From positions 1,267 through 65,266 of the forward strand of contig CAZVMD010000006.1 of NCBI GenBank assembly GCA_964628555.1: a DNA stretch of 64,000 nucleotides. The letters run 5' to 3'. Source of the DNA: an uncultured Myxococcales bacterium (lineage in GTDB: Bacteria > Myxococcota_A > Polyangia > Palsa-1104 > JAEUJZ01). The position numbers were made by a program, and so were the translations under genes. Under the pieces are notes generated by a model, which saw only the letters and a program-made list of their open reading frames with translations, was not told where the DNA came from and searched no databases. Position 1 is the stretch's first letter. Each line of letters begins with the position of its first letter. Of this stretch, positions 1-32,127 are shown piece after piece.

Positions 1-112
1 CTTTTTCGGTATAGCCAACAAAGGCCGGGATGGCGGTCGAGACCTCGGCTACCGAAGGCGGCAGCGTCGAGATCTCTTCCACGAAAACACCAGGTGTCTT
101 GTAGACGGGCAT
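1..112 (-). CDS. Contractile tail-sheath protein, N-terminus only (gene continues off the left edge); eCIS/phage-tail-like
   Basis: Reverse-complement of 1-112 starts ATG at 110-112 with a GAGGA RBS. It reads MPVYKTPGVFVEEISTLPPSVAEVSTAIPAFVGYTEK, the conserved sheath N-terminal signature (PGVYVEE...TA.AFVG.T) of T4 gp18 and Afp/PVC sheaths. It lies 12 nt downstream of the 125..973 gene on the same strand. Confidence 0.55.
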   Translation of the reverse strand, partial: MPVYKTPGVFVEEISTLPPSVAEVSTAIPAFVGYTEK

Positions 113-124
113 CTTTCCTCGTGC

Positions 125-973
125 TCACTGGGTTAATAGGGGCTGCGTTCGGTACTTGATGACGCGAAACAGCAGAACTCCCCCCGCCACACTGCGCGGC
201 GAGGGGTTGGGCAAGGGACCAAGGAGGCGTTCTTCCCCGAGCCGCAGCTCCAGATAGGCACGTGGCTGCTGTCGGCAGGAGATGGGCTGATCGGACAGGA
301 AGCGGACGCAGCGCAGGGTCGGGTACTGCTGCAAGAGCTGCGTGGCCGTGCTGTCGCTGCTGTCCGGTTCACTGCGCAGGTCGGCGCGATTGCTGTCGGA
401 AAAGCTGAGCAGATCGTCGCTGCCGCTGGGGGCTGCATCGACGATGTGCAGCTGGCTGGGGTCGGTGCTTGAGCTGGTAACGCAGTAGTAGGCCCAGCGC
501 AGCTCCCGGGCGCGGAATGGCAGGAAGTAGGTCGCTGGCTGCACCGTCAGGCCATCCGCGGCGACGGGGCAGGGAAGCTCGATGGCCGCGAAGCAGCCGG
601 TCGGCAGCAGCGGATCGGGACTCTCGGCCAGGACTAGCTGGCCAGCCGGCAGACTAGCTGCATCCCCAGGCACGAAGAGCGGTGCCGACTGCGCTGCAAG
701 CTCGCTCAGATCGGTGAACAGCGAGAACTCCGGATTCTGCAGCACCAGCTCAAAGCGCAGCGTGGTTGGCGCCGAAAAAGGAATGGGCAGCTTACCCGCC
801 GCATCAACCGGAGCGAGGATGCGCAGCCGGCCGGCATCAGCGCGGACCAGGCAGCGATGCCCATCGAGCAGGTGGCGGCTGGCGGCGCTCACGCTGATCG
901 CTAGATCCGGACAGACACCGTCGCTGTAGTAGGCGTGCTGCAGGCTGATCTGCAGCAGCGTGATGTAGCTCAT
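125..973 (-). CDS. Hypothetical protein; eCIS-associated by position between the DUF4255 gene and the sheath gene
   Basis: 282-aa ORF. Its ATG at 971-973 overlaps the stop of the upstream DUF4255-like gene (ATGA coupling). No recognisable motif. Confidence 0.45.
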   Translation of the reverse strand: MSYITLLQISLQHAYYSDGVCPDLAISVSAASRHLLDGHRCLVRADAGRLRILAPVDAAGKLPIPFSAPTTLRFELVLQNPEFSLFTDLSELAAQSAPLFVPGDAASLPAGQLVLAESPDPLLPTGCFAAIELPCPVAADGLTVQPATYFLPFRARELRWAYYCVTSSSTDPSQLHIVDAAPSGSDDLLSFSDSNRADLRSEPDSSDSTATQLLQQYPTLRCVRFLSDQPISCRQQPRAYLELRLGEERLLGPLPNPSPRSVAGGVLLFRVIKYRTQPLLTQ

Positions 974-1548
974 CGCCGGATCCTCAGCTGCAGCTCGCCA
1001 ACCGGCGCGATGGCACTGGTCTCTTCGTCTTGATAGACGACCATGCGCGCCTTGTAGAGCAGGGCTGGCAGGTACGGAACGCGCAGCATGCTAAACAGGT
1101 TGTGCTGCTCTGCGATGGGCAGCGTGACCAGCTCCATCATGATCTTTTCGATCCGGCTGCTCAGCGCAGGAGCGTTGCTGTGATCGAAGACCCGCTGGCT
1201 GGCGAAGAACTGCAGGACCAGCGACAAGTAGCGCAGCGCCTGCTCGTAGTCTTTGAAGCGGGCGGCAAAAAGGAGGTACAGGTTAAGGTGAATCGGCGGC
1301 TGCGTTCGCTGCGTCGTCCCGTCGGCGAGCTGGACACGATACGGGTCGCCGCTGCGCAGCGAAAACTCCTGCTCCAGATTGACCAGGAGCAGGGTGATCG
1401 AGCCAAGCTTGAAGTCCAGATTCTCTAGTGACTCGCAGCCGACAAACGCCACCTGTCCCTGATCGCTCTGCGCGCCTTCGACTCCCAAGACGCTGCTCAG
1501 GTGGCCGTTAAGCGTGTCTCGCAGTAGCACGAAAACTTCGTTCAACAT
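970..1548 (-). CDS. DUF4255 (Pvc16/Afp16 N-terminal domain)-like protein; putative tail terminator/cap of a contractile injection system
   Basis: 192 aa; the N-terminus MLNEVFVLLRDTLNGHL resembles the start of DUF4255 proteins. The size is typical. It is first in a minus-strand operon followed by the sheath, with a divergent AAA ATPase. A G-rich RBS precedes it. Confidence 0.5.
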   Translation of the reverse strand: MLNEVFVLLRDTLNGHLSSVLGVEGAQSDQGQVAFVGCESLENLDFKLGSITLLLVNLEQEFSLRSGDPYRVQLADGTTQRTQPPIHLNLYLLFAARFKDYEQALRYLSLVLQFFASQRVFDHSNAPALSSRIEKIMMELVTLPIAEQHNLFSMLRVPYLPALLYKARMVVYQDEETSAIAPVGELQLRIRR

Positions 1549-1765
1549 CCGCTGCGCGTTCCCCCACGGCGCTGATTCCTAAGTCAGATCGCCCTGGCTC
1601 TTTAGCCTGCTGGGCGCAGCAGCGAGCGTCTATTTGATTTCTTTGAAGTCAGCTTTTGGTTTCAAGCAAAGCTTCCTCGGTCGGCTTGGCTGTAGCGTGG
1701 GAAGCGACGCGTGGGGCGATCGCGCGCCGCTTCGTATCGCTCGTCGTGCGGCATGGGAACGAGGA

Positions 1766-3115
1766 ATGAGCACACTTCTGGCAAACGCTGCTGCCTTGGA
1801 ACAAGACCTCGCCTGGTTCGGGGAGGTCCTGGCGACTCGCTTGCGCCTGCACTTCACTCCGAATGAGCCGGGGCCGGCCACTGTCCTGGACCTTCCGCCC
1901 CCCGACCTTAGCCAGTCTGATTCGGAGTATGCTCGCTTCCTCCTGCACTATCGCTTCACGTTTGCCGAGCGCTTGGCGCTGGTCTTGGCGCTGGTGCCCC
2001 AGCTGCGGCCACAGCTCCTCGACCCGTTTTACACGCGCAGTGCCGGCACCGATCGCCGCGTCACTGACTTTGGCGGCTACTGCGAGCGCGGCGATGGCGA
2101 ATTCCTGCCGACCGGCGAGACGCTGGCCTTCCTGCTGGGCGGTGCCGACCTGGCGCTGCGCTTTCACTGTCAGCTGCTCTTCGATCCGCAGCATGTGTTT
2201 AGCCGACACCGGATTCTGCGCAGTGCCGCGCTGGTTCCTGAGCTGCCGATCATGAAGTCGCCGCTCCTGATCTCGGAGGAGCTCCTGTCTCTGTTTACGA
2301 CCGGACAGGAGCGGCGGCCGGCCTTCGGGGCCAGCTTCCCGGCCATGGCCATCGAGACCAACCTGACCTGGGACGATGTTGTGCTCTCGCCCGCGACGCG
2401 GAAGCAGGTGGAGGAGATCCGCACCTTCATCGACTACGGTTCGCAGCTTCTCAACGAGTGGGGCATGGCCGCCAAGCTGCGGCCTGGCTACCGCGCGCTG
2501 TTTTATGGCCCACCCGGCACCGGCAAGACCATGACCGCCTGCCTCGTCGGCAAGTCGAGCGGACGCGACGTCTACAAGGTCGATCTATCGCTGGTGATGT
2601 CCAAGTACATCGGCGAGACCGAAAAGAACCTGGCTCGCGTGTTCGATCAGGCCGAGCACAAAAACTGGATCCTGTTTTTCGATGAAGCCGATGCGCTGTT
2701 CGGCAAGCGCAGCGAGACCCGCGACGCGCACGATCGCTACGCTAACCAAGAAGTCGCTTTCCTACTGCAGCGCATCGAGACTTTCGACGGCATCGCCATT
2801 TTGGCCTCGAACCTGCGCGACAACGTCGATGATGCCTTCGCCCGTCGCTTCGAGTCCGTGATCTACTTCCCAATGCCGCGCGCCGAAGAGCGCCTGCGGC
2901 TGTGGCGACAAGGCTTCTCGCCGCAGGCCACGCTCGATCGCTCCGTCGATCTGGAGGCCCTGGCTCGCGAGCGCGTCCTGTCGGGCGGCGCGATCATGAA
3001 CGTCATCCGCTACGCCTCGCTGCAGGCGCTAAAGGGCGGCGGTCGTCCGATTACCGCCGACGATCTGCTGGTGGGAATTCAGCGTGAGCTGGCCAAAGAG
3101 GGCAAGGCGGCCTGA
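1766..3115 (+). CDS. AAA+ ATPase (Afp15/Pvc15-like eCIS-associated ATPase candidate)
   Basis: Walker A GPPGTGKT, Walker B ILFFDEADALF, sensor/arginine-finger region SNLRDNVDDAFARRFE. ~240-aa N-terminal non-ATPase domain. Divergent from the DUF4255 gene. The listed ORF starts at a TTG at 1634; the ATG at 1766 is preferred but uncertain. Confidence 0.8.
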   Translation: MSTLLANAAALEQDLAWFGEVLATRLRLHFTPNEPGPATVLDLPPPDLSQSDSEYARFLLHYRFTFAERLALVLALVPQLRPQLLDPFYTRSAGTDRRVTDFGGYCERGDGEFLPTGETLAFLLGGADLALRFHCQLLFDPQHVFSRHRILRSAALVPELPIMKSPLLISEELLSLFTTGQERRPAFGASFPAMAIETNLTWDDVVLSPATRKQVEEIRTFIDYGSQLLNEWGMAAKLRPGYRALFYGPPGTGKTMTACLVGKSSGRDVYKVDLSLVMSKYIGETEKNLARVFDQAEHKNWILFFDEADALFGKRSETRDAHDRYANQEVAFLLQRIETFDGIAILASNLRDNVDDAFARRFESVIYFPMPRAEERLRLWRQGFSPQATLDRSVDLEALARERVLSGGAIMNVIRYASLQALKGGGRPITADDLLVGIQRELAKEGKAA

Positions 3116-3143
3116 GCGCCGCCGCGCGTGCACTGCCCTGCGC

Positions 3144-4124
3144 CTAGCGGTCTTTCAGCCCGCTGAGCTTGCGGTCGGCGAGGATGTTGTACAGCTTGCT
3201 GATGCGGCCGCTGTCGTCGACGTCGATGGCCAGCACCGAGCGCGGGGCGATGCGCGGGGGCGGTCCGCTATGCTGCGCCACCAGGCAGGGCAGGCCGGCC
3301 AGCACCGCCAGGCTGCCTGTCCACTGTCCTTGGGATCCGCCCAGGCGCGGCACCTTGACCAGGAACAGCGAGACCGACGCGACGCCGCGCACCGGCTTGC
3401 GCGCTGCCAGATACTGGCCGCCACCGTCGTTGAGCATCACCACCTGCGGCGAGAGCAGGCCGGCCACCGCCGCCACGTCTTGCTGCGCGATGGCTAGCAA
3501 AAGCTGGGTCAGCGTGGCCTGCACCCGGGCCTGCGCCGTCTGCGAGGTATCGATGCGGGCCTGGTCGTAGCTGCTTAGCTTGCGACGACCGCGCAGGTGC
3601 ACGACCTTGACGTTGGCCTCGCTCATGTCGAGCGTGGCAGCGGTCTGTCGGACATCGAGATCGAGGACATCGCGCAGCACCAGCACGGCTCGCTGCTGCG
3701 GTGAGAGCGCTTCCAGCGCGAGCAGAAAGCCGAAGGTCAGCGACTCGCGGGTGTCGTAGCGAGCGGTCGGACTGGCTGCCTCGTCGGCTGGCTCGGCGAC
3801 CGGGCTGGGCAGCCAGGGACCGATGTACGGCGTGCGGCGGCGGCGGCGCAGGACGTCAATCGACAGGCGAGAGGCGACACGCCACAGCCAAGGGCGCAGC
3901 GGCAAAGTGAGGTCGGCGGGCGGGTGGAAAAGGAGTCGCGCGCAGGTCTCTTGCACGACATCATCAGCATCGGCGGCCGAGCCGGTGATGCGCAGCGCCA
4001 GGCCCCACAAGGCAGGGCGCTCCTTTGCGATCAGCGCGGCGAAGTCGGGCGGATCGGCAGCCGGCTTGGCTGCTTCGTCGCTGGGCTGAGGACGGGAAGA
4101 GGGTCGCGGCGACCGGTCGCTCAC
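3144..4124 (-). CDS. ECF41-family RNA polymerase sigma factor (sigma-70 region 2/4 plus a SnoaL-like C-terminal extension)
   Basis: Sigma-2 region DDVVQETCARLL. The linker motif YIGPWL is characteristic of ECF41. ~200-aa C-terminal extension. 4-nt overlap with the upstream membrane-protein gene. Confidence 0.8.
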   Translation of the reverse strand: MSDRSPRPSSRPQPSDEAAKPAADPPDFAALIAKERPALWGLALRITGSAADADDVVQETCARLLFHPPADLTLPLRPWLWRVASRLSIDVLRRRRRTPYIGPWLPSPVAEPADEAASPTARYDTRESLTFGFLLALEALSPQQRAVLVLRDVLDLDVRQTAATLDMSEANVKVVHLRGRRKLSSYDQARIDTSQTAQARVQATLTQLLLAIAQQDVAAVAGLLSPQVVMLNDGGGQYLAARKPVRGVASVSLFLVKVPRLGGSQGQWTGSLAVLAGLPCLVAQHSGPPPRIAPRSVLAIDVDDSGRISKLYNILADRKLSGLKDR

Positions 4125-4952: not shown

Positions 4953-6068
4953 TCAGAAACCGTCGCTGTGCAGGGTGCGAGCGAGGCGGCGATAGAGCTC
5001 GCGATGGTCAAAGCCACTGATCAGATCGGGCAGCAGGTGGGCAAGCTGCCCGACCTCGTCCAGGTGATCGGCCGGCACGCAGCCCAGAAACGTGCCCCAG
5101 CGCGAAGCGGCGACGGTGACCAGGCCATCGTTGGGGATCGGCTGCAGCGGGTTCGGACTGGTCAGGGCGAAGACCGGCACGGCGACGGCGAGCAGCGGAT
5201 CCAGAAGATCGATGCGATCCGAGTTGCCCCAGACGCTGCCGGCACACTCGCTGTCGGCGATGCGGGCGCTGCTGCGGCCGGCGACGCTGTAGTACTTGAC
5301 GCGGCGGTCGTCGGGGTTCTTGGGATTGAACTCGCGCGTCATGTAGTCGCGCGATAGCTGCCGCAGCGAGGCTTGCACCTTGGCATCGCCCGGGGCGGCG
5401 GTCAGGCTCCACAGGGCGCGCAGGAGGGCGTTGATCAGATCGTAAGAGATGCCGGGGATGAGCCCGAGCGCAGCGTCGGCGACCGGCGTCCCGCGGTGCG
5501 GCGATGCAACGGTGACTAGGCCCGCGACGCGATCGCCGTAGCCCAGCGAGCTGACAAGATAGCGGGCATCGATGCCGCCCTGCGAGTGACCGATGAGGTT
5601 GACCTTGCAGGCGCCGGTGGCTCGCAGCGTGTCGTCGATGACGCTGGCCAGGTAGGTGGCGCGCACAGCCGAGCTCTCAAAAGGGGGGACCTGTGCTTCG
5701 ATGACCGTCTCGCCACGGCTGCGCAGATCGGCCGCGACCATAAAGAAGTAGTTGATCGGTCCGATGCGCTCAAAGCCGGCGAAGCCATGCGCGAGGACGA
5801 TGGGATAGGGGGCGCCGCGACAGCTACCGAGTGCCGCGACTGACTGCGCCAGCGCCGCCTCGTCTTCGGCGGGCCCGCCGCAGGCCGCAAGCTGAGCGAC
5901 GCCCAGCACGGCAGACAGGCAGATGGCGAGGCGAGCCCAGCGCCGGCTTATGCCGCTCGCTAGCCGTGCCTGCCGACGAGGCTCTGGACGAACGGGCGGT
6001 GCAGAGAGCGGACGAGCAGAGCGGAAGAACGACGGACGGGCAGATAGAGGACGGAGAGACCGGGACAT
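4953..6068 (-). CDS. Secreted triacylglycerol lipase/esterase (alpha/beta hydrolase, Pseudomonas-type lipase family)
   Basis: Oxyanion HGF (VLAHGFAGF) and nucleophile elbow GHSQGG. Lipobox-like LAAC signal after an N-terminal extension. Strong RBS GGAAGGAGG before the ATG at 6068. Confidence 0.7.
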   Translation of the reverse strand: MSRSLRPLSARPSFFRSARPLSAPPVRPEPRRQARLASGISRRWARLAICLSAVLGVAQLAACGGPAEDEAALAQSVAALGSCRGAPYPIVLAHGFAGFERIGPINYFFMVAADLRSRGETVIEAQVPPFESSAVRATYLASVIDDTLRATGACKVNLIGHSQGGIDARYLVSSLGYGDRVAGLVTVASPHRGTPVADAALGLIPGISYDLINALLRALWSLTAAPGDAKVQASLRQLSRDYMTREFNPKNPDDRRVKYYSVAGRSSARIADSECAGSVWGNSDRIDLLDPLLAVAVPVFALTSPNPLQPIPNDGLVTVAASRWGTFLGCVPADHLDEVGQLAHLLPDLISGFDHRELYRRLARTLHSDGF

Positions 6069-6173: not shown

Positions 6174-6503
6174 CTACTGGCTGGGGCCCGCTGGCGGCTG
6201 GCTGCTGTGCTCGCGCTTGCGCTGCAGGAACAGCTTGATGGTCGCCAGGATCGCGATCGCTGAAAGGCCCGGGCAGACGATGCCGAAGAAGATCCACAGC
6301 AGCATGCGGTTAAAGCCCTGCTGCTCAGCGCTGCCGAGGCGACCATTCCAGTACAAGATCGAGAGCCCAACGCCGAGGGCGCTAAACAACAGATAGGTTC
6401 CGCTGCGCGCCTGACCGGCCTGGGGCGAGCCCGGGCTGGCTGGATTCTTGGTCAGTGCCTGCTTGCTGCTGCTGTCTTTGCCGCTGTCTTGATCGGTGGC
6501 CAT
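6174..6503 (-). CDS. Small two-TM membrane protein (paralog of 11975..12184)
   Basis: Hydrophilic S/K/D-rich N-terminus, then 2 TM helices. Clear homology to the 69-aa ORF at 11975..12184 (RSGxYLLFSAxGxxLxIxxW...LLxxIxxGIxxPGxxxIxILxxIKxF). ATG at 6503 with AGGGA nearby; the alternative ATG is at 6533. Confidence 0.5.
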   Translation of the reverse strand: MATDQDSGKDSSSKQALTKNPASPGSPQAGQARSGTYLLFSALGVGLSILYWNGRLGSAEQQGFNRMLLWIFFGIVCPGLSAIAILATIKLFLQRKREHSSQPPAGPSQ

Positions 6504-6647
6504 GTCCCTGTCCCATCCCGCTGCACGGCTCATGATATCTTCAAATGCGGCCGGCTTCGGCTGCGCGTTTGCAGGCGGGTGCTAGGCGTCTGTCTGGCCC
6601 AGCCTTCGATGCCGCGGCGGCCGGCTCTGTCCCACGACTCCGTCACC

Positions 6648-7853
6648 ATGATTCGCTATGGCTCCAGCTTTCGCGCGGCCGATATCAAGACGACGCTGGC
6701 GCATGCGCAGGCCATCGCGCCCCAGCTGGGTATCAGCCGCGTCACCGAGGTGACGTACCTCGATCGCATCGGCGTCCCGGTCTTCGTCGCGATTCGGCCG
6801 GATGCGCAGCCGGGATCGGTATGTGTCAGCGCCGGCAAGGGCATGACCGCGGCCGAGGCCCGCATCGGGGCCTACATGGAGGCCATCGAGCTAGCCTGGG
6901 CTGAGTACCGGCGCACCCAGTTTCCCCTGCAGAGCCTGCCCAGCGGCGAGGTCCTCGACGGGCGCAGCCGCCCCGAGGCCCTGCTGGATTTCTGTCCGAG
7001 CTGGGGGCAGTTTCTCGACCGCAGCGCCGAGATGTGGTGTGTGCCGGCGCAAGACATCGTCAGCGGCGAGACCTGGCAGATTCCCGCCGAGACGGTCTTT
7101 CATCCGCTGCCGGCTGAGCTGGGCGGCGCGCGCTACTTCGGCTCGGGCAGCAATGGCCTGGCCTCGGGCAACAGCGTGCTGGAGGCGACGGTGCACGCGC
7201 TCGCTGAGGTCATCGAGCGCGATGTCACCAGCTTCCACAACGCCCGCGATGCCTCGCGCCTGATCGCCGCCGCCAGCCTGCCGGAGCCGATCGCCGGCCT
7301 GCTTGCTCACCTCAACGCGCAGGGCTTTGAGCTGGTGGTGCGCGGTCTACCGAACCCCTTTGGCCTGCCGTGCTTTATGGCGGTCTCGTTCGATCGCACC
7401 CAGCCTGAGGTGACGCTGCGCGGCGACGGCTGTCATCCGGTGCGCTCGATTGCGCTGTTGCGCGCGGTGACTGAGACCATCCAGTGCCGGCTGAGCCTGA
7501 TCCATGGCGGCCGCGACGATCTGGCCAATGTCCATCGTCCCTTCAAGGCCCTATCGCCCGAGGAAAAAGCCGAGGTCTATGCCAAGGTGCTGGGCGGACT
7601 CCTGCGCGATCCGCAGCCGCTGGCCTACACCGACCTGCCCGATCACGCCGACCAGATCAGCAGCCTGGAGTCTTGCCTGGGGCTCCTCGTTGCTCGCCTG
7701 CACGCCCTTGGCTTTCCCCGCATCCTGCGTTTTGTCTACACGCCGCCGGACTACCCGGTGCAGGTGGTGCGCATCGTCGTGCCGGGGCTGGAGTGCTATT
7801 CGCGCGACACCAATCGCATCGGTCCGCGGCTGCGGAGGTATCTGCGTGTCTGA
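6648..7853 (+). CDS. ycaO: YcaO-domain protein (TfuA-partnered, thioamide-forming type)
   Basis: YcaO hallmark GSGSNGLASGNSVLEATVHALAEVIERD, plus IGVPVFVAIRPD and GAYMEAIE. Stop overlaps the tfuA start. The start may instead be the ATG at 6609. Confidence 0.85.
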   Translation: MIRYGSSFRAADIKTTLAHAQAIAPQLGISRVTEVTYLDRIGVPVFVAIRPDAQPGSVCVSAGKGMTAAEARIGAYMEAIELAWAEYRRTQFPLQSLPSGEVLDGRSRPEALLDFCPSWGQFLDRSAEMWCVPAQDIVSGETWQIPAETVFHPLPAELGGARYFGSGSNGLASGNSVLEATVHALAEVIERDVTSFHNARDASRLIAAASLPEPIAGLLAHLNAQGFELVVRGLPNPFGLPCFMAVSFDRTQPEVTLRGDGCHPVRSIALLRAVTETIQCRLSLIHGGRDDLANVHRPFKALSPEEKAEVYAKVLGGLLRDPQPLAYTDLPDHADQISSLESCLGLLVARLHALGFPRILRFVYTPPDYPVQVVRIVVPGLECYSRDTNRIGPRLRRYLRV

Positions 7854-8541
7854 GGTCTGGCTGTACGCCGGTCCGACGCTGCTGCGCGCGCAGGCCATCG
7901 AGCCCGGGCTGTCGCTTGCGGGCATCTCGGTGCTGCCGCCGATTGGCCGCGGTGATCTGCCACGTCTGCTGCGCTCGCCGGCGGCGGCCCGGCCGGGCTG
8001 CATCGTCATTGTCGATGGCCTGTTTCATCTGCGGCTTTCGGTGGGGCACGCCGAGCTGCGCAGCGCGCTGGTCAGCGGCTTTCGCGTCTTCGGCCTGTCT
8101 TCGATGGGCGCGATTCGAGCCCGCGAGATGGCGCACCTGGGGATGGAGGGCTTCGGGCAGATCTATGAGCTGTACTGCCAGGCCGGGATCGACTTTCGCG
8201 ACGACGAAGTGACGCTGCTGCACGACCCCGAGCCGCCGTATCGCGAGCTCTCTGAGCCGCTTGTGCACCTGCGAGCCGCGGTGCGAGATCTGGTCCAGCT
8301 GGGGCTCTTGCCAGAACAGGCCGGCGAGGCGGTGATCGAGAAGCTGTCCCGCTCGTGGTTCGGCGATCGCACGCTGCCGATCCTGCGCGCGCTGCTTTCT
8401 GCGCAGGGGCTCGACGCGGCGGCGCTGGCGGCGATCGATGCCCGCTTGGCGGACTTCAACCGCTATCGACAGAAGGCGCACGATCTAATCGCCTTCCTGC
8501 AGCAGCGACCGGATCGTCAGCCGCGCTCTACTGCGCCCTAG
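7846..8541 (+). CDS. tfuA: TfuA-like protein (YcaO partner for peptide backbone thioamidation)
   Basis: GTG at 7846 overlaps the ycaO stop by 8 nt. N-terminus VWLYAGPTL...LPPIGRGDL and the length (~230 aa) match the TfuA family. Co-oriented and coupled with ycaO. Confidence 0.75.
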   Translation: MSEVWLYAGPTLLRAQAIEPGLSLAGISVLPPIGRGDLPRLLRSPAAARPGCIVIVDGLFHLRLSVGHAELRSALVSGFRVFGLSSMGAIRAREMAHLGMEGFGQIYELYCQAGIDFRDDEVTLLHDPEPPYRELSEPLVHLRAAVRDLVQLGLLPEQAGEAVIEKLSRSWFGDRTLPILRALLSAQGLDAAALAAIDARLADFNRYRQKAHDLIAFLQQRPDRQPRSTAP

Positions 8542-9764
8542 CTTGCGTGTTGCTGTGCTGCGGCCAGCGCGGCGTAGAAGCGCTCGCTGGGCGAAGGCAG
8601 CGCCCGCACTTGTGCGGTGTACAGAGCTTGCCGCTGTCGCTGCAGCGCTGCGCCCGCTTCGCCCAGGAGCTCGTCTAGCGTCGCCAGAAAACCGGCCTCG
8701 TCCAGGACGTCGACGCCGGCGATGGCGTCGAGGTATGGGTTGCCCTGCAGCACCGGCGCAAGGAGCTGCGACAGGCTGAGCGGCCAAGCGCGAAACGGGT
8801 ACAGCCCGCCGGCGCGTGCGACAAAGGTCTGGGCGGCCGCGGACGCCGGGGCCCGACTGACATCAGCAAGGCTGCCGATTAGCACCGGGACCTGTGCGGC
8901 CAGCGCGGCCATGACAGTTGTGGCGGCGATGTTGAAGCTGAGCAGCAGATCACTGGCCGCAAGCAGGCGCAGAAACTCGCTCGCCGGCTGCTGCGGTAGG
9001 TGGCGATAGCGGTCGCCTAGCCCGGCCGCTGCGGCGAACGGCTCGGGACCGATGTGCAGGACCCGCAGCGGGGTCGCCCCTTTGGGGTTCGCCAGATAGT
9101 GCGAAAGATAGGTACAGATCAGCTCGGGCAGCGCGTCCGCCATGCGCTGGCGGACCGGATGCAGCTGCTGCGAGGCGTGCTGCCACGCCGCGGATGGCCA
9201 GAAGATCAGCCTCTCACCGGGGCTGACACCGAGCGCCTGTCGCACCTGCGCTCGCTCCGCGGGCTCCAGAGTGATGGGCGGGGGTAGGGCATTGTAGGCG
9301 CCTGCGGCGGTCGGACGGACAAACGGCACCGGCACCAAGCGGTGGAGCACTTGCTTGACGTCTGGCCCGAGCTGAAATGTCTCGGGGTGGTAGTCCCAGT
9401 GCAGGCCGGCCTCGGGGACATTCCAGACATCGAGCGCAAGGACCGGAATCCCCGACTGCAGGAAGGTGTCAAAGCGACGGCCGCTGATGCCGAAGAACGT
9501 GTACACCGCGACCAGATCAATCAGCACGATGCTGTCGCAGCCCTCGCTGCGTGCGGTGTCGAGGATGGCTTCGTCCAAGCGGCTGAGTGCCAGATCAATG
9601 CGGCCATAGCGCACAGGCGCGGCGCGGATCGTCTTCTGTAGACCTGACGGCCCCAAGAACAGGACGCGGTCCCCCGCTGCGTGCAGGGCAGTGGCGAGCT
9701 GAACCCCCAGCAAGGCCTCGCCAAATCCCATGGCTGTAGCGGCAACAAACAAGTGCTTTCGCAT
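8538..9764 (-). CDS. GT-B-fold glycosyltransferase-like protein (degenerate; function unknown)
   Basis: ~409 aa. N-terminal Rossmann-like VLFLGPSGL. A C-terminal segment SDLLLSFNIAATTVMAALAAQVPVL resembles the MurG/GT1 donor-binding helix pattern. ATG at 9764. Convergent with tfuA and overlapping it by 4 nt. Confidence 0.4.
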   Translation of the reverse strand: MRKHLFVAATAMGFGEALLGVQLATALHAAGDRVLFLGPSGLQKTIRAAPVRYGRIDLALSRLDEAILDTARSEGCDSIVLIDLVAVYTFFGISGRRFDTFLQSGIPVLALDVWNVPEAGLHWDYHPETFQLGPDVKQVLHRLVPVPFVRPTAAGAYNALPPPITLEPAERAQVRQALGVSPGERLIFWPSAAWQHASQQLHPVRQRMADALPELICTYLSHYLANPKGATPLRVLHIGPEPFAAAAGLGDRYRHLPQQPASEFLRLLAASDLLLSFNIAATTVMAALAAQVPVLIGSLADVSRAPASAAAQTFVARAGGLYPFRAWPLSLSQLLAPVLQGNPYLDAIAGVDVLDEAGFLATLDELLGEAGAALQRQRQALYTAQVRALPSPSERFYAALAAAQQHAS

Positions 9765-9910
9765 GGATACGCCCACCCAGGGTTCATCGTAGCACGCCTC
9801 GTCGCTGACTAGGTTCCGCTGCCGAGCCCACGTGCTATCATCGACCGCGGGGCAATTCACGCACCTTCCGCGGGCGGCTGCCGATGACTCGGTTGAAGGG
9901 GTAACACTAC

Positions 9911-12727: not shown

Positions 12728-14179
12728 CTAAAGAGCGCTGGCGCACTTGGCCGCTGGCTGTGGCTGGCACTTCGAGGCCGGCAGCGGCATCCCGGCCTTG
12801 CGCGCGTCGAAGAAGTTGAACACGTCATCCATCGAATCGGTGATGGTGTGGACGTGATCGGCTCCGGCGCACTGCAAGTACTGCACCTGGGCTCCCTTCT
12901 GGCACCACGAGGCCATCACCGGATCATTGGCCGCCGGAATCACCGTCGTGTCTTTGTCGCCGGTGACATACAGGATCGGCACGCTGGTGTTGACCGGCAG
13001 GCTCATCGTCGCCGGGTTGTTGTAGTGCAGCCAGCAGCTCCAGGGATCGTTCTTCTGGTTCTGCGTGACGGCGCCGAGGAACGGCATGGTGAACACCTGC
13101 GCCGGGTCGGTGACGTTCTTGATCGGATCGCTGTAGCTGCTATTGCAGTAGTTCTTAAGCTGCGTCAGCGCTGTACCATCCCAGGGCGGCAGCAGCGAGC
13201 GTGAGATCTGGCTGCGATCGTAGTAGTCGCTCCAGGTATAAGCGATGGCTTGGCCCAGGTTGTAAGTGGGCGCGGGACCGGCGAAGTTGGCGCGCGCACT
13301 CTCGGGCAGGTCGGCCGGCGGTGACACGGCGGCGGCACCCTTGAGCGTAAACTCCGGCGCGTAGAACGGCTGCATCGCCAGCGTGTACTGCACCGCTTGT
13401 GCCCCCTGCGAGTGACCCCACAGATACATCTCGCTGGTGGCGCTGACGCTCTCGTTGGCGGTGAGATATTTCTGCGCGGCGCGCGCCGCATCCAGCGAGG
13501 CCAGAGCCGTCGGCTCCAGCAACAGATACGGCGAGGTGGCCGTCGATGCCGCGCCCAGGCTGCGCTGGTTGAGGTAGTCGGGAAACACCGCGACATAGCC
13601 GGCCGAGGCCATCAGCATCGAGAGGATGGTCATCGGGGCGGTAAAGTCGCCGGCCTTGCGCGACGGCGCGCACTCATCCGTGTAGCCAAGCGTCGGGTGC
13701 AGGAAGAGCACGATAGGGAAGCTCTTGCCGCTGGCGGTTGGCCACGTCACCATCGCCGTCGCATCGACTAGCTGACCGCGATCCTGCGTCTGATAGCGCA
13801 CCGTGGCGGTATGCACGCCGTACTGCGGCGAGCGGTGCACATTGAGCTGCGATCCCAAGAACGCCACCGCCTGCAGCGTCGAGATGAACAGCGTGTTGGC
13901 GCCCAGGAAGTTCTTCGACTTCTGCAGCACGTTGCCCATGCTGGTGCTCGGCTGCCAGCTATACGCGGTCTGGCCGCAGATCGCCGGGCTCTTGGCATCC
14001 CAGGGCGGAAACATCGGCGTCATCGGGGTGTCGCCCCCGTCGCCGCCGCCGCCATCTAGGTTGCCATCCCCGCCATCGGGGTTATCGGTGCCGCTACTCG
14101 ATGTGCCGCCGCAGGCCACCGAAAACGACAGAGCCAAGGCTAAAGAGATCGAGACCTGTTTGCTGCGCCGCATCTGCAT
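12728..14179 (-). CDS. Secreted lipoprotein lipase (secretory-lipase / LIP family alpha/beta hydrolase)
   Basis: Lipobox LSFSVAC after MQMRRSK. GAGGGGG RBS 4 nt before the ATG at 14179. Nucleophile motif GHSQGA. Size and layout fit the PF03583-type secretory lipase family. Confidence 0.6.
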   Translation of the reverse strand: MQMRRSKQVSISLALALSFSVACGGTSSSGTDNPDGGDGNLDGGGGDGGDTPMTPMFPPWDAKSPAICGQTAYSWQPSTSMGNVLQKSKNFLGANTLFISTLQAVAFLGSQLNVHRSPQYGVHTATVRYQTQDRGQLVDATAMVTWPTASGKSFPIVLFLHPTLGYTDECAPSRKAGDFTAPMTILSMLMASAGYVAVFPDYLNQRSLGAASTATSPYLLLEPTALASLDAARAAQKYLTANESVSATSEMYLWGHSQGAQAVQYTLAMQPFYAPEFTLKGAAAVSPPADLPESARANFAGPAPTYNLGQAIAYTWSDYYDRSQISRSLLPPWDGTALTQLKNYCNSSYSDPIKNVTDPAQVFTMPFLGAVTQNQKNDPWSCWLHYNNPATMSLPVNTSVPILYVTGDKDTTVIPAANDPVMASWCQKGAQVQYLQCAGADHVHTITDSMDDVFNFFDARKAGMPLPASKCQPQPAAKCASAL

Positions 14180-14287
14180 TCGCCCCCTCGTGCAGACAGA
14201 AACCAACAGCATGATATCAAGTGCCGGACCTCCGACGCATGCTTGGTTTTTTTGGTCGGCAGGCGAATGACTCTAGAATTTCGAGTC

Positions 14288-15976: not shown

Positions 15977-16053
15977 CGACGGATTTCACACAGCTTTGCA
16001 AATCTCCAAAAAAGGCCGCATAGGCCTTGCTCCGACGGAGTACCATCGTTTTG

Positions 16054-17694
<1,641 letters not shown>

Positions 17695-23687: not shown

Positions 23688-25471
23688 TGGCCAGCCCGCT
23701 GCGCCGCCGCGAATTCTTGCTGGCCAGCCTGGCCGGGCTGGGCGCCGGCTGCTCGTTGCAGATCTTCGATCAGCGGCCGCAGATCGAAAAGATCACCGGA
23801 CAGATCGTCGGGCCGAGCGAGCTGCGCGGCCACTTTCTGCGCGATGGCGGCGCGGTGCTGCGCAGTCGGCGCATTGCCGAGCAGCACCACGTCGATGTCG
23901 CCATCCTTGGCGGCGGCGTGGCTGGACTGTCGGCGGGCTGGCGCTTGGCGCGGGCCGGTGTGCAGGACTTCCGCCTGCTGGAGCTCGAAGACGAGGTCGG
24001 TGGCACCTCGCGGGCCGGCGGCAATCGCGTCAGCGGCTATCCCTGGGGGGCGCACTATCTGCCCGTGCCCTCGCGCAACCTCGACGCGCTGTGCGAGCTC
24101 CTGCGCGAGCTTGAGATCCTGCGCGGCTTCGATGCGGCCGGTCGCGCCATCTGTCGCGAAGAGACGCTGTGCCGGTCGCCGCAGGAGCGCGTGTTCTACA
24201 AGGGCCGCTGGTACGAGGGCCTGTATCTGCGGGTGGCCGCCTCGGCCGAGGATCAGCGCCAGTTCGAGCGCTTTCACGACGAAGTGGCGCGCTGGGTGGC
24301 GACACGAGCCAGCGACGGGCGACGTGCCTTCACGCTGCCGCGCGCGAGCTCGGCACCGCAGGCCGCCGCGGAGCTCGATCGGCTGACCATGGCGGCCTTT
24401 CTCGATCAGCTGGGACTGTCGTCGTGGCGGCTGCGCTGGTACGTCGATTACGCCTGCCGCGATGACTTTGGGCTGCGGGCCAGCCAGTGCTCGGCCTGGG
24501 CGGGCATGCACTACTTTGCCGCGCGCCTGCTGCACGCCGATGACAGCCCACCTGAAGTGCTGACCTGGCCCGAGGGCAATGGCTATCTAGTCGGGCGCTT
24601 GTCGCGCTACCTCGATGCTGCTGCGCCGACGGCGCCAACGCGGCGGGTGCGACCGCAGAGCCTGGTCGTCGATGTGCGCAGCCTGCCGCAGGAGGGGCCG
24701 GGCAGCGATCGCGTCGAGATCCTGTACCTGGATCTGTCGCGTGAGCCGGATCCGGCGCGGGCGCCGCTGTGTGCGCTGCGGGCCCGTCGCGCCATCGTCG
24801 CGCTGCCGGCCTTCCTGCGCCGGACGCTGCTGGCTGACTATCGCGAGCGGCCGGGGAACCTGCCGGCCTGGCTGGGGCAGTTCAGCTACGCGCCGTGGCT
24901 GGTCGCCAACCTGACGCTGCGCCGGGCCCATGCCGCACCGGTGGCGGCGGCGCCGGTGCCGGCCCATGCGCGGGGCGGTGGCTTCCCGCCGGCCTGGGAC
25001 AACGTGCTTGTCGAGAGCCCATCGCTCGGCTACGTGGTGGCAACGCATCAGCGCGAGCCCAAGCTCCTGTCCGCTGTCGAAGGAGGCGATGGCCTGCCGC
25101 GCACCGTGTGGACCTATTACCTGCCGCTGTGCGACGGGGATCCGCGCGACGAGCGAGGACGCCTGCAGGCCCTCAGCTGGGGGCAGGCGCGCGATCGCGT
25201 GCTCGCCGACTTGGCCCGCGCCGAGCCCGAGCTGATCCGCGACTGCGAGCACATCGATGTCTTTCGCTGGGGACACGGCATGGTGCGGCCGCTGCCGGGG
25301 CTGCTGACTGGTGCCGCGCTGGCCGAGGCGGCGCAGCCGCTGGGGGGGCTGCACTTTGCGCACAGCGATCTGTCGGGGATGGCGCTGTTCGAAGAGGCGC
25401 ATCATGCCGGTGTGCGTGCCGCCGAAGAGGTCCTACGTGCGCTCGACGCCAACTTTGAACCTTGGGCGTGA
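23687..25471 (+). CDS. FAD-dependent amine oxidase-like oxidoreductase with a Tat-type signal
   Basis: ATG overlaps the upstream stop (TGATG). Twin-arginine motif RRREFLLASLAGLGAG. FAD dinucleotide fold VAILGGGVAGLSAGWRLARAG. Confidence 0.7.
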   Translation: MASPLRRREFLLASLAGLGAGCSLQIFDQRPQIEKITGQIVGPSELRGHFLRDGGAVLRSRRIAEQHHVDVAILGGGVAGLSAGWRLARAGVQDFRLLELEDEVGGTSRAGGNRVSGYPWGAHYLPVPSRNLDALCELLRELEILRGFDAAGRAICREETLCRSPQERVFYKGRWYEGLYLRVAASAEDQRQFERFHDEVARWVATRASDGRRAFTLPRASSAPQAAAELDRLTMAAFLDQLGLSSWRLRWYVDYACRDDFGLRASQCSAWAGMHYFAARLLHADDSPPEVLTWPEGNGYLVGRLSRYLDAAAPTAPTRRVRPQSLVVDVRSLPQEGPGSDRVEILYLDLSREPDPARAPLCALRARRAIVALPAFLRRTLLADYRERPGNLPAWLGQFSYAPWLVANLTLRRAHAAPVAAAPVPAHARGGGFPPAWDNVLVESPSLGYVVATHQREPKLLSAVEGGDGLPRTVWTYYLPLCDGDPRDERGRLQALSWGQARDRVLADLARAEPELIRDCEHIDVFRWGHGMVRPLPGLLTGAALAEAAQPLGGLHFAHSDLSGMALFEEAHHAGVRAAEEVLRALDANFEPWA

Positions 25472-25485
25472 TACTGTGCCCGGCC

Positions 25486-32065: not shown

Positions 32066-32127
32066 CTGCCTTGCTGCGGTGCTACGGCATCGCGACGAAA
32101 ACCAAATCGACAACAGCTGGCCAGCGC

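What the first reader, a model, noticed from the sequence alone, without database searches (positions are those of the whole stretch)
1..3115. Left edge is the start of a phage-tail-like contractile injection system (eCIS): sheath, DUF4255 cap and divergent AAA+ ATPase
The reverse strand at 1-112 encodes MPVYKTPGVFVEEISTLPPSVAEVSTAIPAFVGYTEK with a GAGGA RBS. This is the conserved N-terminal signature of contractile sheath proteins (T4 gp18, Afp2-4, Pvc2-4). Upstream on the same strand are a coupled 282-aa unknown and a 192-aa protein whose N-terminus and size fit DUF4255 (Afp16/Pvc16-like tail terminator). Divergent from these is a 449-aa AAA+ ATPase with a long N-terminal domain, as in Afp15. 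The tube, baseplate, spike and any toxin cargo would lie just off the left edge. A myxobacterial eCIS with a divergent ATPase and an unknown 282-aa insert between cap and sheath is worth following.
Basis: partly seen in the sequence, partly recalled or inferred. Interest (0 to 1): 0.7.

Follow-up and report, generated by a model that had tools for sequence, protein, structure and literature searches.

The report
Cap end of a myxobacterial injection-system cluster
The left edge of the window is the first part of a phage-tail-like contractile injection system gene cluster (cap, cap adaptor, start of the sheath, and a divergently transcribed loading ATPase); it is real, but an ordinary member of a well-described kind, and the 'unknown' 282-aa protein is the already known cap adaptor.

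Summary
Window 1-3115 holds, on the minus strand, a 192-aa Pvc16_N/DUF4255 cap (970-1548), a translationally coupled 282-aa protein (125-973) and the first 37 codons of a sheath gene (1-112). On the plus strand it holds a 449-aa AAA+ ATPase (1766-3115).

A public metagenome contig, 99.97% identical over 3.45 kb, continues 7.4 kb past the left edge. It encodes the full sheath, three tube proteins, DUF5908, CIS_tube, a VgrG-like spike, gp25, a CIS spike tip and the start of a large baseplate protein.

The 282-aa 'unknown insert' is the cap adaptor Cis16B/Alg16B, described in 2022 for AlgoCIS and the Anabaena tCIS and in 2026 for SalCIS. A family profile hits all three solved adaptors, and they supply the only two significant Foldseek matches.

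The ATPase belongs to the CIS ATPase family. It is 48% identical over its full length to the ATPase that follows the tape-measure gene in an Azospirillum cluster, and 44% identical to Afp15 over the AAA module. It is a short form that lacks Afp15's degenerate first AAA domain.

The divergent ATPase position is shared by myxobacterial relatives. Whether particles are released ('e'CIS) is untested. Verdict: a new member of a known kind, of low to moderate interest.

The parts
1..112 (-). First 37 codons of the sheath gene (Cis2/Afp2-4 family). The gene runs off the left edge of the window.
   Evidence: Translation. phmmer against the PDB gives All3325 (tCIS sheath) 3.1e-12, AlgoCIS sheath 3.3e-12, 9r9h sheath 5e-9 and Pvc3 2e-3. 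On L001 the same 37 aa start a 456-aa protein with PF17482 above cutoff and PF04984 below cutoff (27.4 against 31.4 bits). That protein hits All3325 at 2e-127 and Alg2 at 3.5e-127.
113..124 (-). 12-nt spacer between the cap adaptor stop and the sheath start, carrying a GAGGA ribosome-binding site.
   Evidence: Read directly from the sequence: the reverse complement is GCACGAGGAAAG followed by ATG.
125..973 (-). Cap adaptor (Cis16B / Alg16B / SalCis16b family), 282 aa. Its start overlaps the cap gene stop (ATGA).
   Evidence: No Pfam, NCBIfam or single-sequence PDB hit. A profile of 37 homologues (A1) hits SalCis16b 9r9n_C at 6e-10, All3326 7b5i_AB at 2e-7 and the AlgoCIS cap adaptor 7adz_1A at 5e-7. 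The AF2 model has pLDDT 92. Its only significant Foldseek PDB hits are 7b5i_AB (7e-11) and 7adz_1A (1e-10). Size and gene position match Alg16B (284 aa).
970..1548 (-). Short single-domain cap / tail terminator (Cis16A / Alg16A type, DUF4255 = Pvc16_N), 192 aa. It is the first gene of the structural operon.
   Evidence: PF14065 at E=1.1e-30, covering profile positions 5-177 of 180. PDB hits: All3327 at 8e-17 (192 aa), Algo1 cap at 3e-10 (197 aa) and 9r9n_B at 4e-10.
1549..1765 (.). Divergent intergenic region between the cap operon and the ATPase gene. It contains an AT-rich block (about 1621-1690) conserved in the nearest relative and is the presumed shared promoter/operator.
   Evidence: The alignment with L007 shows about 70 nt nearly identical inside otherwise diverged DNA. 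An exact 20-mer is shared and is unique in the window. No sigma-70 consensus site and no Rfam family was found here. The function is inferred only.
1766..3115 (+). CIS-associated AAA+ ATPase (Cis15/Afp15 family, short form), 449 aa. The N-domain is about aa 1-186 (winged-helix-like). The AAA module is aa 187-449, with Walker A G248-T255, Walker B D306/E307, sensor-1 N349 and Arg fingers R360/R361.

Best explanation
Window 1-3115 is the cap-proximal end of a chromosomal contractile injection system (CIS) cluster in a myxobacterium. The cluster is of the double-cap type typified by AlgoCIS, the Anabaena tCIS and SalCIS (called clade Ib in the literature).

One operon runs leftwards: cap (Cis16A), cap adaptor (Cis16B), sheath, three tube paralogues, DUF5908, tube initiator, VgrG-like spike, gp25, spike tip, then large baseplate proteins.

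Inferred mechanism, by homology to the solved systems:
- The baseplate and spike nucleate a tube whose length is set by a tape-measure protein.
- The sheath polymerises around the tube in an extended, metastable state.
- A hexamer of the 192-aa cap closes the tube.
- A hexamer of the 282-aa adaptor bridges the cap to the last sheath layer, with its N-terminal strand completing the sheath 'handshake'. Without it, particles mis-assemble.
- The divergently transcribed 449-aa ATPase (winged-helix-like N-domain plus one active classical AAA module) acts in the cytoplasm. It stabilises, unfolds and loads cargo and/or assists assembly, as shown for Pvc15.
- On target contact the sheath contracts and drives the spike-tipped tube and its cargo into the target.

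Shown here: the identity of each protein family, the gene order, and the continuation of the cluster off the window. Inferred: assembly roles, cargo loading, firing, and whether particles are released.
For: - Cap: PF14065 at 1e-30, plus the solved caps All3327 and Algo1.
- Adaptor: the family profile hits all three solved Cis16B proteins at 6e-10 to 5e-7. The AF2 model (pLDDT 92) has only these as significant Foldseek hits.
- Sheath: the 37-aa N-terminus and the full-length gene on L001 hit tCIS and AlgoCIS sheaths at about 1e-127. That is stronger than Pvc/Afp (1e-76 to 1e-43) and T4 gp18 (1e-7).
- Continuation: L001 is 99.97% identical to window 1-3452. It carries 3x gp19 tube, DUF5908, CIS_tube, Phage_base_V, gp25 and CIS_spike_tip.
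- Orthologous clusters carry Baseplate_J, a Laminin_G_3 protein, a tail-fibre-like protein with the Peptidase_S74 chaperone domain, and CIS_TMP.
- ATPase: full-length homology to CIS ATPases in the canonical post-tape-measure position and 44% identity to Afp15's D2. All catalytic motifs are present (read from the alignment).
- Divergent placement is conserved across Myxococcales, Polyangiaceae and Vitiosangium.
Against: - Only 37 codons of the sheath and none of the tube or baseplate genes lie in the window itself. The rest is read from a near-identical contig from another sample, not from this assembly.
- No tape-measure, tail-fibre or cargo gene has been seen for this exact lineage, only in relatives with 41-65% identical adaptors.
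- The window's own ATPase N-domain does not hit PF22977 directly, and a profile comparison with the Afp15 N-region is non-significant (E=0.085).
- TM-scores of the adaptor model to the solved adaptors are moderate (0.46-0.59).
- No expression or particle data exist.
Confidence: 0.9

Rival explanations
1. It is the tail module of a contractile-tailed prophage (or an R-type tailocin), not a dedicated injection system.
For: Sheath, gp19 tube, gp25, baseplate J and VgrG-like hub families are shared with myophage tails. The sheath has a weak hit to T4 gp18 at 4e-7.
Against: - CIS-specific families are present: Pvc16_N cap, CIS_tube, CIS_spike_tip and DUF5908, with CIS_TMP in a relative.
- A dedicated AAA+ ATPase of the Afp15 family is present.
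- Sheath similarity to CIS sheaths is about 120 orders of magnitude stronger than to phage or pyocin sheaths.
- The 20 genes scanned between 3.1 and 40 kb to the right show no capsid, portal, terminase or lysis family. Two of them (the YcaO and TfuA frames) overlap as called. Those with a family hit look like chromosomal genes: sigma factor, lipases, YcaO/TfuA, kinase, sigma-54 activator.
- Relatives show about 20 kb of tail-only genes.
Confidence: 0.03
2. It is a CIS of this family, but not an extracellular one. Particles stay inside the producer (cytoplasmic as in Streptomyces, or membrane-anchored as in the Anabaena tCIS, T6SSiv or as proposed for SalCIS). They would act in cell death, development or contact-dependent predation rather than being released.
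For: The nearest solved relatives by sheath, cap and adaptor similarity include the thylakoid-anchored tCIS and SalCIS, for which membrane anchoring is proposed. Myxobacteria are contact-dependent predators with developmental lysis (my own knowledge). No tail-fibre gene has been seen for the window's own lineage.
Against: The Vitiosangium orthologous cluster encodes a fibre-like protein with haemagglutinin repeats and the Peptidase_S74 intramolecular chaperone domain typical of tail fibres. That fits binding of an external target. AlgoCIS, an equally close relative, is released. No Cis19- or SalCis20-like anchor was looked for or found.
Confidence: 0.3
3. The divergent AAA+ ATPase is unrelated to the injection system, for example a stand-alone defence or proteostasis ATPase that merely sits next to it.
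For: The best NCBIfam hit is the anti-phage ATPase IteA (E=6e-29), and the best PDB hits are Cdc48/p97. The gene is on the opposite strand and is not next to a tape-measure gene.
Against: - The IteA score is 101 bits against a cutoff of 510, so the protein is not a member.
- Full-length identity of 48% to the ATPase inside the Azospirillum CIS operon, and the N-domain hit to the Aureibacter CIS operon ATPase, show a CIS-specific family.
- The AAA module is closer to Afp15 (44% identity) than the generic AAA matches suggest.
- The gene keeps its divergent position next to the cap gene in three myxobacterial lineages while the other flanking genes change. It is also more conserved (68-85%) than the cap or the adaptor.
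Confidence: 0.03

Closest known systems
AlgoCIS of Algoriphagus machipongonensis (PDB 7adz; Xu et al. 2022, PMC8894135)
   Same: Short single-domain cap (197 against 192 aa). A separate cap adaptor of nearly the same length (284 against 282 aa), detected by profile (5e-7) and by fold (1e-10). A single sheath protein with a near-identical N-terminus and a full-length hit at 3.5e-127.
   Different: The sheath here is 456 aa and lacks the extra outer domains of the 692-aa Alg2. The host phylum differs (Myxococcota against Bacteroidota). Presence of the AlgoCIS 'plug' and 'cage' was not examined.
Anabaena thylakoid-anchored CIS (PDB 7b5h/7b5i; Weiss et al. 2022, PMC8894136)
   Same: The solved components carry consecutive locus tags in the order cap (All3327, 192 aa), Cis16B (All3326), sheath (All3325). 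These are the best PDB matches for sheath (2e-127), cap (8e-17) and adaptor fold (7e-11).
   Different: All3326 is 399 aa with a large insertion. The tCIS is anchored in thylakoid stacks through baseplate extensions, which has no counterpart in a myxobacterium. No ATPase is discussed for that cluster.
SalCIS of Salmonella enterica subsp. salamae (PDB 9r9h/9r9n; PMC13266070)
   Same: SalCis16b is the best sequence-profile hit of the 282-aa family (6e-10). Its deletion disrupts assembly. The cap gene comes first in the operon. A packing AAA ATPase, SalCis15, is present.
   Different: SalCis15 is reported to lie next to the effector genes (SalCgo1, SalCgo2) rather than divergent from the cap. SalCIS has a SalCis20 membrane protein, which was not looked for here.
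Afp (Serratia entomophila pADAP) and PVC (Photorhabdus): clade Ia eCIS
   Same: The same core subunit set. The ATPase AAA module is 44% identical to the D2 domain of Afp15. The cap belongs to the same Pfam family, Pvc16_N.
   Different: - Afp16 and Pvc16 are two-domain caps (293-295 aa) with no separate adaptor.
- Afp15 is 696 aa (N + degenerate D1 + D2) against 449 aa (N + one AAA).
- Afp has three sheath paralogues against one here.
- Gene order differs: in Afp the ATPase and cap lie at the end of the operon, after the tape measure.
CIS clusters on plasmids of Azospirillum thermophilum and Aureibacter tunicatorum (annotated, uncharacterised)
   Same: Short-form ATPase of 447-467 aa with the same N-domain (48% full-length identity to the Azospirillum protein). 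Aureibacter has the order DUF4255, 277-aa hypothetical protein, sheath.
   Different: There the ATPase follows the tape-measure gene on the same strand. The Aureibacter 277-aa protein is not detected by the adaptor profile, apart from a short N-terminal motif.

Membership tests
eCIS/CIS superfamily (eight core subunit types of Chen et al. 2019, PMC6899500) | Afp2/3/4-type contractile sheath | tested here: met
   The 37-aa N-terminus in the window hits solved CIS sheaths at 3e-12. The full 456-aa gene on the 99.97%-identical contig L001 hits PF17482 above cutoff and PF04984 below it, and hits All3325 at 2e-127.
eCIS/CIS superfamily (eight core subunit types of Chen et al. 2019, PMC6899500) | Afp16-type cap / tail terminator (DUF4255, Pvc16_N) | tested here: met
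   PF14065 at E=1.1e-30, 107 bits against a cutoff of 27. Solved caps are hit.
eCIS/CIS superfamily (eight core subunit types of Chen et al. 2019, PMC6899500) | Afp15-type AAA+ ATPase | tested here: met
   BLASTP against Afp15 residues 434-695 gives 44% identity, E=2e-64. Identity is 48% over the full length to the in-operon CIS ATPase of Azospirillum.
eCIS/CIS superfamily (eight core subunit types of Chen et al. 2019, PMC6899500) | Afp1/5 tube, Afp7 tube initiator, Afp8 spike and Afp9 gp25-like proteins | tested here: met
   All lie outside the window, on L001: three PF06841 proteins, PF19266 at 4e-44, PF04717 at 2e-19, PF04965 at 2e-23, plus PF19267 spike tip and PF19265.
eCIS/CIS superfamily (eight core subunit types of Chen et al. 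2019, PMC6899500) | Afp11 baseplate-J protein | tested here: inconclusive
   L001 ends 357 aa into the gene. That N-terminal part is 74% identical to the 1420-aa orthologue in L007/L011, whose C-terminus hits PF04865 at 1e-7 and TIGR02243. The domain itself was not seen for this exact lineage.
Double-cap ('clade Ib'-type) CIS: AlgoCIS, tCIS, SalCIS | Short single-domain cap (about 190-200 aa) instead of the two-domain Afp16/Pvc16 (about 295 aa) | tested here: met
   The protein is 192 aa and Pvc16_N covers residues 8-183. The best PDB hits are All3327 (192 aa) and Algo1 (197 aa).
Double-cap ('clade Ib'-type) CIS: AlgoCIS, tCIS, SalCIS | Separate cap adaptor protein (Cis16B), encoded between the cap and sheath genes in this cluster and, by consecutive locus tags, in Anabaena | tested here: met
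   The family profile hits 9r9n_C, 7b5i_AB and 7adz_1A. The only significant Foldseek hits are 7b5i_AB and 7adz_1A, both with probability 1.00. The gene position is read directly.
Double-cap ('clade Ib'-type) CIS: AlgoCIS, tCIS, SalCIS | Phylogenetic placement of the sheath inside clade Ib | not tested
   No tree was built. Only the ranking of PDB hits is available, in bits: tCIS 429, AlgoCIS 428, SalCIS 366, Pvc3 260, Afp3 226.
Afp15/Pvc15 ATPase architecture (N domain + degenerate D1 + active D2; PMC11495950) | Active D2 AAA module with Walker A and B, sensor-1 Asn and two Arg fingers | tested here: met
   GPPGTGKT, FFDEAD, ASN and ARRF align with the Afp15 motifs.
Afp15/Pvc15 ATPase architecture (N domain + degenerate D1 + active D2; PMC11495950) | Degenerate first AAA domain (D1) | tested here: not met
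   The protein has 449 aa against 696. Only one AAA stretch is found (PF00004, residues 245-369). Residues 1-186 do not align with Afp15 residues 208-433. The N-domain model is helical and winged-helix-like, not a P-loop fold.
Afp15/Pvc15 ATPase architecture (N domain + degenerate D1 + active D2; PMC11495950) | Winged-helix-variant N domain (PF22977) | tested here: inconclusive
Extracellular (released) mode of action | Particles released from the producer that bind targets through tail fibres | not testable with these tools
   A fibre-like gene (Fil_haemagg repeats plus Peptidase_S74) is seen only in the Vitiosangium orthologous cluster. No experimental data exist.
Anti-phage ATPase IteA (NF042959) | Score above the NCBIfam equivalog cutoff | tested here: not met
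   101 bits against a cutoff of 510.
Contractile-tailed prophage | Capsid, portal and terminase genes adjacent to the tail genes | tested here: not met
   No such family occurs in the 20 genes scanned at 3.1-40 kb of the window, in the 7.4 kb left extension, or in 20 kb of the relatives' clusters. The left boundary of this lineage's cluster was not reached.

The most novel reading that the evidence does not exclude
Myxobacterial clusters of this type may form a distinct regulatory and functional variant. The loading ATPase has been moved out of the operon to a divergent position, sharing a conserved AT-rich control region with the cap gene. In this lineage it also sits next to an ECF-type sigma factor. 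The system could therefore be switched on by a specific signal, such as prey contact or development. It could act in myxobacterial predation or programmed lysis rather than as a constitutively made, released toxin syringe. Nothing here excludes this, and nothing here shows it.
Probability: 0.15. Interest if true: 0.55.

Novelty: new member of a known kind. Interest (0 to 1): 0.25.

Why it matters
This adds one more, apparently complete, double-cap contractile injection system, from an uncultured myxobacterium that recurs in several metagenomes. I found no experimentally characterised myxobacterial CIS, although Myxococcota MAG clusters have been reported and linked speculatively to predation (PMC11937823). 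A cultured relative with an orthologous cluster exists (Vitiosangium sp. GDMCC 1.1324, L016). That strain would be the practical entry point for asking whether such systems serve predation.

For annotation, the 282-aa family has no Pfam or NCBIfam model. It can now be labelled cap adaptor (Cis16B), and the 449-aa protein can be labelled a short-form Cis15 ATPase. None of this changes the current understanding of these machines.

Tried and rejected
- An exact-sequence look-up of the 282-aa protein found nothing. The public copies differ by one residue. The look-up with the cap protein worked.
- Single-sequence searches of the 282-aa protein against Pfam, NCBIfam and PDB sequences were empty. 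Only the family profile and the fold search identified it.
- The 37-aa peptide gives no Pfam or NCBIfam hit.
- hhalign against single sequences was non-significant for A3 against the Afp15 N-region, A1 against the Aureibacter 277-aa protein, and A1 against Afp16. I therefore do not claim that the Aureibacter protein is a homologue, nor that Cis16B derives from the Afp16 C-terminal domain.
- An hmmsearch with the adaptor profile against ORFs of the Microthrixaceae, Azospirillum, Aureibacter and pADAP loci found no further adaptor.
- The homologue search with the ATPase N-domain returned mostly gene fragments.
- The consensus promoter scan and Rfam found nothing in the divergent intergenic region.
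- The window's own genome was not among the species-representative genomes scanned, so its organism name and the left continuation of its own contig were not obtained.
- I rejected prophage tail, IteA-type defence ATPase and unrelated neighbouring ATPase as explanations. The reasons are given under the rival explanations.

Full report
**1. Observation**

- On the minus strand, a 192-aa ORF (970-1548) is followed by a 282-aa ORF (125-973). The 282-aa ATG overlaps the 192-aa stop codon as ATGA.
- After a 12-nt spacer containing GAGGA come the first 37 codons of a third gene (112..1), which runs off the window: MPVYKTPGVFVEEISTLPPSVAEVSTAIPAFVGYTEK.
- On the plus strand, 217 bp away and divergent, is an ATPase gene.
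- The mechanical ORF list starts the ATPase at TTG 1634. ATG 1766 (449 aa) is supported because relatives align from residue 1-2 of that form and independent gene calls give 449-453 aa.

**2. Identity of the parts**

Cap. The 192-aa protein matches Pfam Pvc16_N (DUF4255) at E=1.1e-30 over almost the whole profile. It also matches the solved caps of the Anabaena tCIS (All3327, 192 aa, 8e-17), AlgoCIS (Algo1, 197 aa, 3e-10) and SalCIS.

Sheath. The 37-aa peptide has no Pfam hit because the sheath models cover other regions. It matches the N-termini of solved CIS sheaths at 3e-12 (All3325; AlgoCIS sheath) and 5e-9, and matches Pvc3, Pvc2 and Afp3 more weakly.

ATPase. It has one classical AAA domain (PF00004, 2e-27). 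Walker A and B, the sensor-1 Asn and two arginine fingers are all present (read from the alignment).

**3. What lies off the left edge**

A look-up of the exact cap protein found ten public contigs.
- Contig L001 (10.8 kb) is 99.97% identical to window 1-3452 and continues 7.4 kb beyond position 1.
- It encodes the complete 456-aa sheath, which starts with the same 37 residues. PF17482 scores above its cutoff and PF04984 below it.
- It then encodes three gp19-type tube proteins, DUF5908, CIS_tube (4e-44), a VgrG-like spike (Phage_base_V), a 66-aa ORF, gp25, CIS_spike_tip (2e-48) and the first 357 aa of a large protein.
- That last protein is 74% identical to a 1420-aa orthologue in a Myxococcales MAG, whose C-terminus carries Baseplate_J.
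- Orthologous clusters in that MAG, in a Polyangiaceae MAG and in the cultured Vitiosangium sp. GDMCC 1.1324 show the same order.
- The Vitiosangium cluster adds a fibre-like protein (haemagglutinin repeats plus the Peptidase_S74 chaperone domain) and a CIS tape-measure protein (PF19268, 3e-97).

**4. The '282-aa unknown'**

The protein alone has no hit in Pfam, NCBIfam or PDB sequences.
- A homologue search found 44 relatives, nearly all 270-300 aa.
- A profile of 37 of them (A1) hits three solved proteins and nothing else of note: SalCis16b (6e-10), All3326/Cis16B of Anabaena (2e-7) and the AlgoCIS cap adaptor Alg16B (5e-7).
- An AlphaFold2 model built on that alignment is confident (pLDDT 92, pTM 0.85). 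It shows a beta-rich N-terminal domain with short helices and a small C-terminal beta domain. This matches the published description of Alg16B: 284 aa, an Ig-like NTD of residues 1-213 plus a beta-barrel CTD of residues 214-284.
- Foldseek against the PDB returns only two significant hits, 7b5i_AB (7e-11) and 7adz_1A (1e-10), both with probability 1.00.

The protein is therefore the cap adaptor. In AlgoCIS and SalCIS a hexamer of the adaptor links the cap hexamer to the last sheath layer, and its deletion gives uncapped or mis-assembled particles. The Anabaena paper describes the same two-protein cap. It is a published hallmark of the systems the literature calls clade Ib, not a new insert.

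**5. The ATPase**

- The N-terminal 230 aa were searched alone against plasmid records. They hit 'ATP-binding protein' genes that sit directly after the CIS tape-measure genes in the clusters of Azospirillum thermophilum and Aureibacter tunicatorum. This is the canonical Afp14-Afp15 position.
- Full-length identity to the Azospirillum protein is 48% (E=3e-135).
- Against Afp15 from pADAP (696 aa), residues 187-449 align with Afp15 residues 434-695 at 44% identity (E=2e-64). The N-terminal 186 residues do not align.
- Pvc15 is described as N domain + degenerate D1 + active D2. The window protein, like the Azospirillum and Aureibacter ones, is a short form with an N domain and one active AAA module, and no D1.

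The evidence that its N domain equals the Afp15/Pvc15 N domain is indirect:
- Afp15 residues 24-207 hit PF22977 (winged-helix variant) at 2.6e-20.
- The Azospirillum homologue hits it at 8e-9.
- Two close homologues of the window protein hit it weakly, and the window protein itself does not.
- hhalign is non-significant.

The IteA anti-phage model is hit far below its cutoff, so the protein is not a member of that family.

The divergent position next to the cap gene is conserved in the Myxococcales MAG (85% identity), the Polyangiaceae MAG (71%) and Vitiosangium (68%). The genes beyond the ATPase differ between these lineages. This supports a functional link between the ATPase and the cluster.

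**6. Mechanism (inferred by homology)**

- Baseplate and spike nucleate the tube.
- The sheath assembles around the tube in the extended state.
- The Cis16A hexamer terminates the tube.
- The Cis16B hexamer terminates and stabilises the sheath.
- The ATPase stabilises or unfolds cargo and loads it, or assists assembly, as shown for Pvc15.
- Contraction drives the spike and cargo into a target.

Family identities, gene order and the cluster's continuation are shown here. The roles are inferred.

Whether particles are released is open. The equally close relatives include a released system (AlgoCIS), a thylakoid-anchored one (tCIS) and a possibly membrane-anchored one (SalCIS). The fibre-like gene in Vitiosangium favours an external target.

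**7. Rivals**

- A prophage tail is very unlikely. The cluster carries CIS-specific families and a dedicated ATPase. Sheath similarity to CIS sheaths is vastly greater than to phage sheaths. No head or lysis genes appear in the flanks examined.
- An unrelated neighbouring ATPase is excluded by the evidence in section 5.

**8. Novelty and score**

- Organism: the closest genomes are Myxococcales, Polyangiaceae and Vitiosangium, which supports 'myxobacterial'.
- CIS-like clusters in Myxococcota MAGs have already been reported and tentatively linked to predation.
- The double cap and the adaptor were published in 2022 and 2026.
- The cluster meets the core-subunit definition of Chen et al. 2019. 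Baseplate J is seen only in orthologues.
- This is a new member of a known kind.
- Interest is about 0.25. The residual interest lies in the lack of any characterised myxobacterial CIS and in the conserved control region.

Noticed in passing
window 1621-1690 (inside the 1549-1765 intergenic region): An AT-rich block of about 70 nt is nearly identical in a Myxococcales MAG whose flanking proteins are only 65-85% identical. It contains short dyads (AGCTTT..AAAGCT, TTGAA..TTCAA) and is unique in the window. It is probably the shared promoter/operator of the cap operon and the ATPase gene. There is no sigma-70 consensus site and no Rfam hit.
   Followed up: partly
window 3144-4124 (-): An ECF-type sigma-70 factor (regions 2 and 4) with a C-terminal extension of about 140 aa lies convergent with the ATPase gene. 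It keeps this position in the nearest relative MAG (L007, L008). In the Polyangiaceae MAG a 923-aa ORF takes its place. It is a possible regulator of the cluster, untested.
   Followed up: partly
window 6489-9860: A YcaO (PF02624, 4.5e-59) and TfuA (PF07812, 9e-32) pair lies next to a DUF6365 protein and a small 119-aa ORF (6174-6533). This looks like a thioamidation or RiPP-like cluster and is syntenic in the relative MAG. The start codons of the overlapping YcaO and TfuA ORFs are uncertain.
   Followed up: partly
L001 8675-8875 (left of the window); L007 16197-16394: A 65-66-aa ORF sits between the VgrG-like spike gene and gp25, with no family hit. It is present in the two closest lineages and absent in the Polyangiaceae cluster.
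   Followed up: no
L015 2594-3367 (Microthrixaceae MAG): In this actinobacterial relative the cap gene is followed almost directly by the sheath gene, with no detectable Cis16B. An ATPase fragment lies at the far end of the locus. The adaptor and the divergent ATPase position are therefore not universal among relatives found with the baseplate protein.
   Followed up: partly
window 4953-6068 (-) and 12728-14212 (-): Two lipase-type alpha/beta hydrolases (Abhydrolase_1/PGAP1-like and LIP secretory lipase) lie near the cluster. The first is syntenic in the relative MAG. No link to the CIS was tested.
   Followed up: no
window 16027-17694 (+), 25462-27027 (+), 30413-32113 (-): A Ser/Thr protein kinase, an FHA-domain sigma-54 activator and a DUF4331 protein (2e-118) are encoded here. 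The gene content is typical of a myxobacterial chromosome and includes no phage genes.
   Followed up: no
L018 25168-26001 (Aureibacter tunicatorum pAT3): A 277-aa hypothetical protein sits between the DUF4255 and sheath genes, in the position of a cap adaptor. The adaptor profile does not detect it, apart from a short N-terminal Y..l.l.v.HeFY-like motif. It may be a diverged adaptor family.
   Followed up: partly
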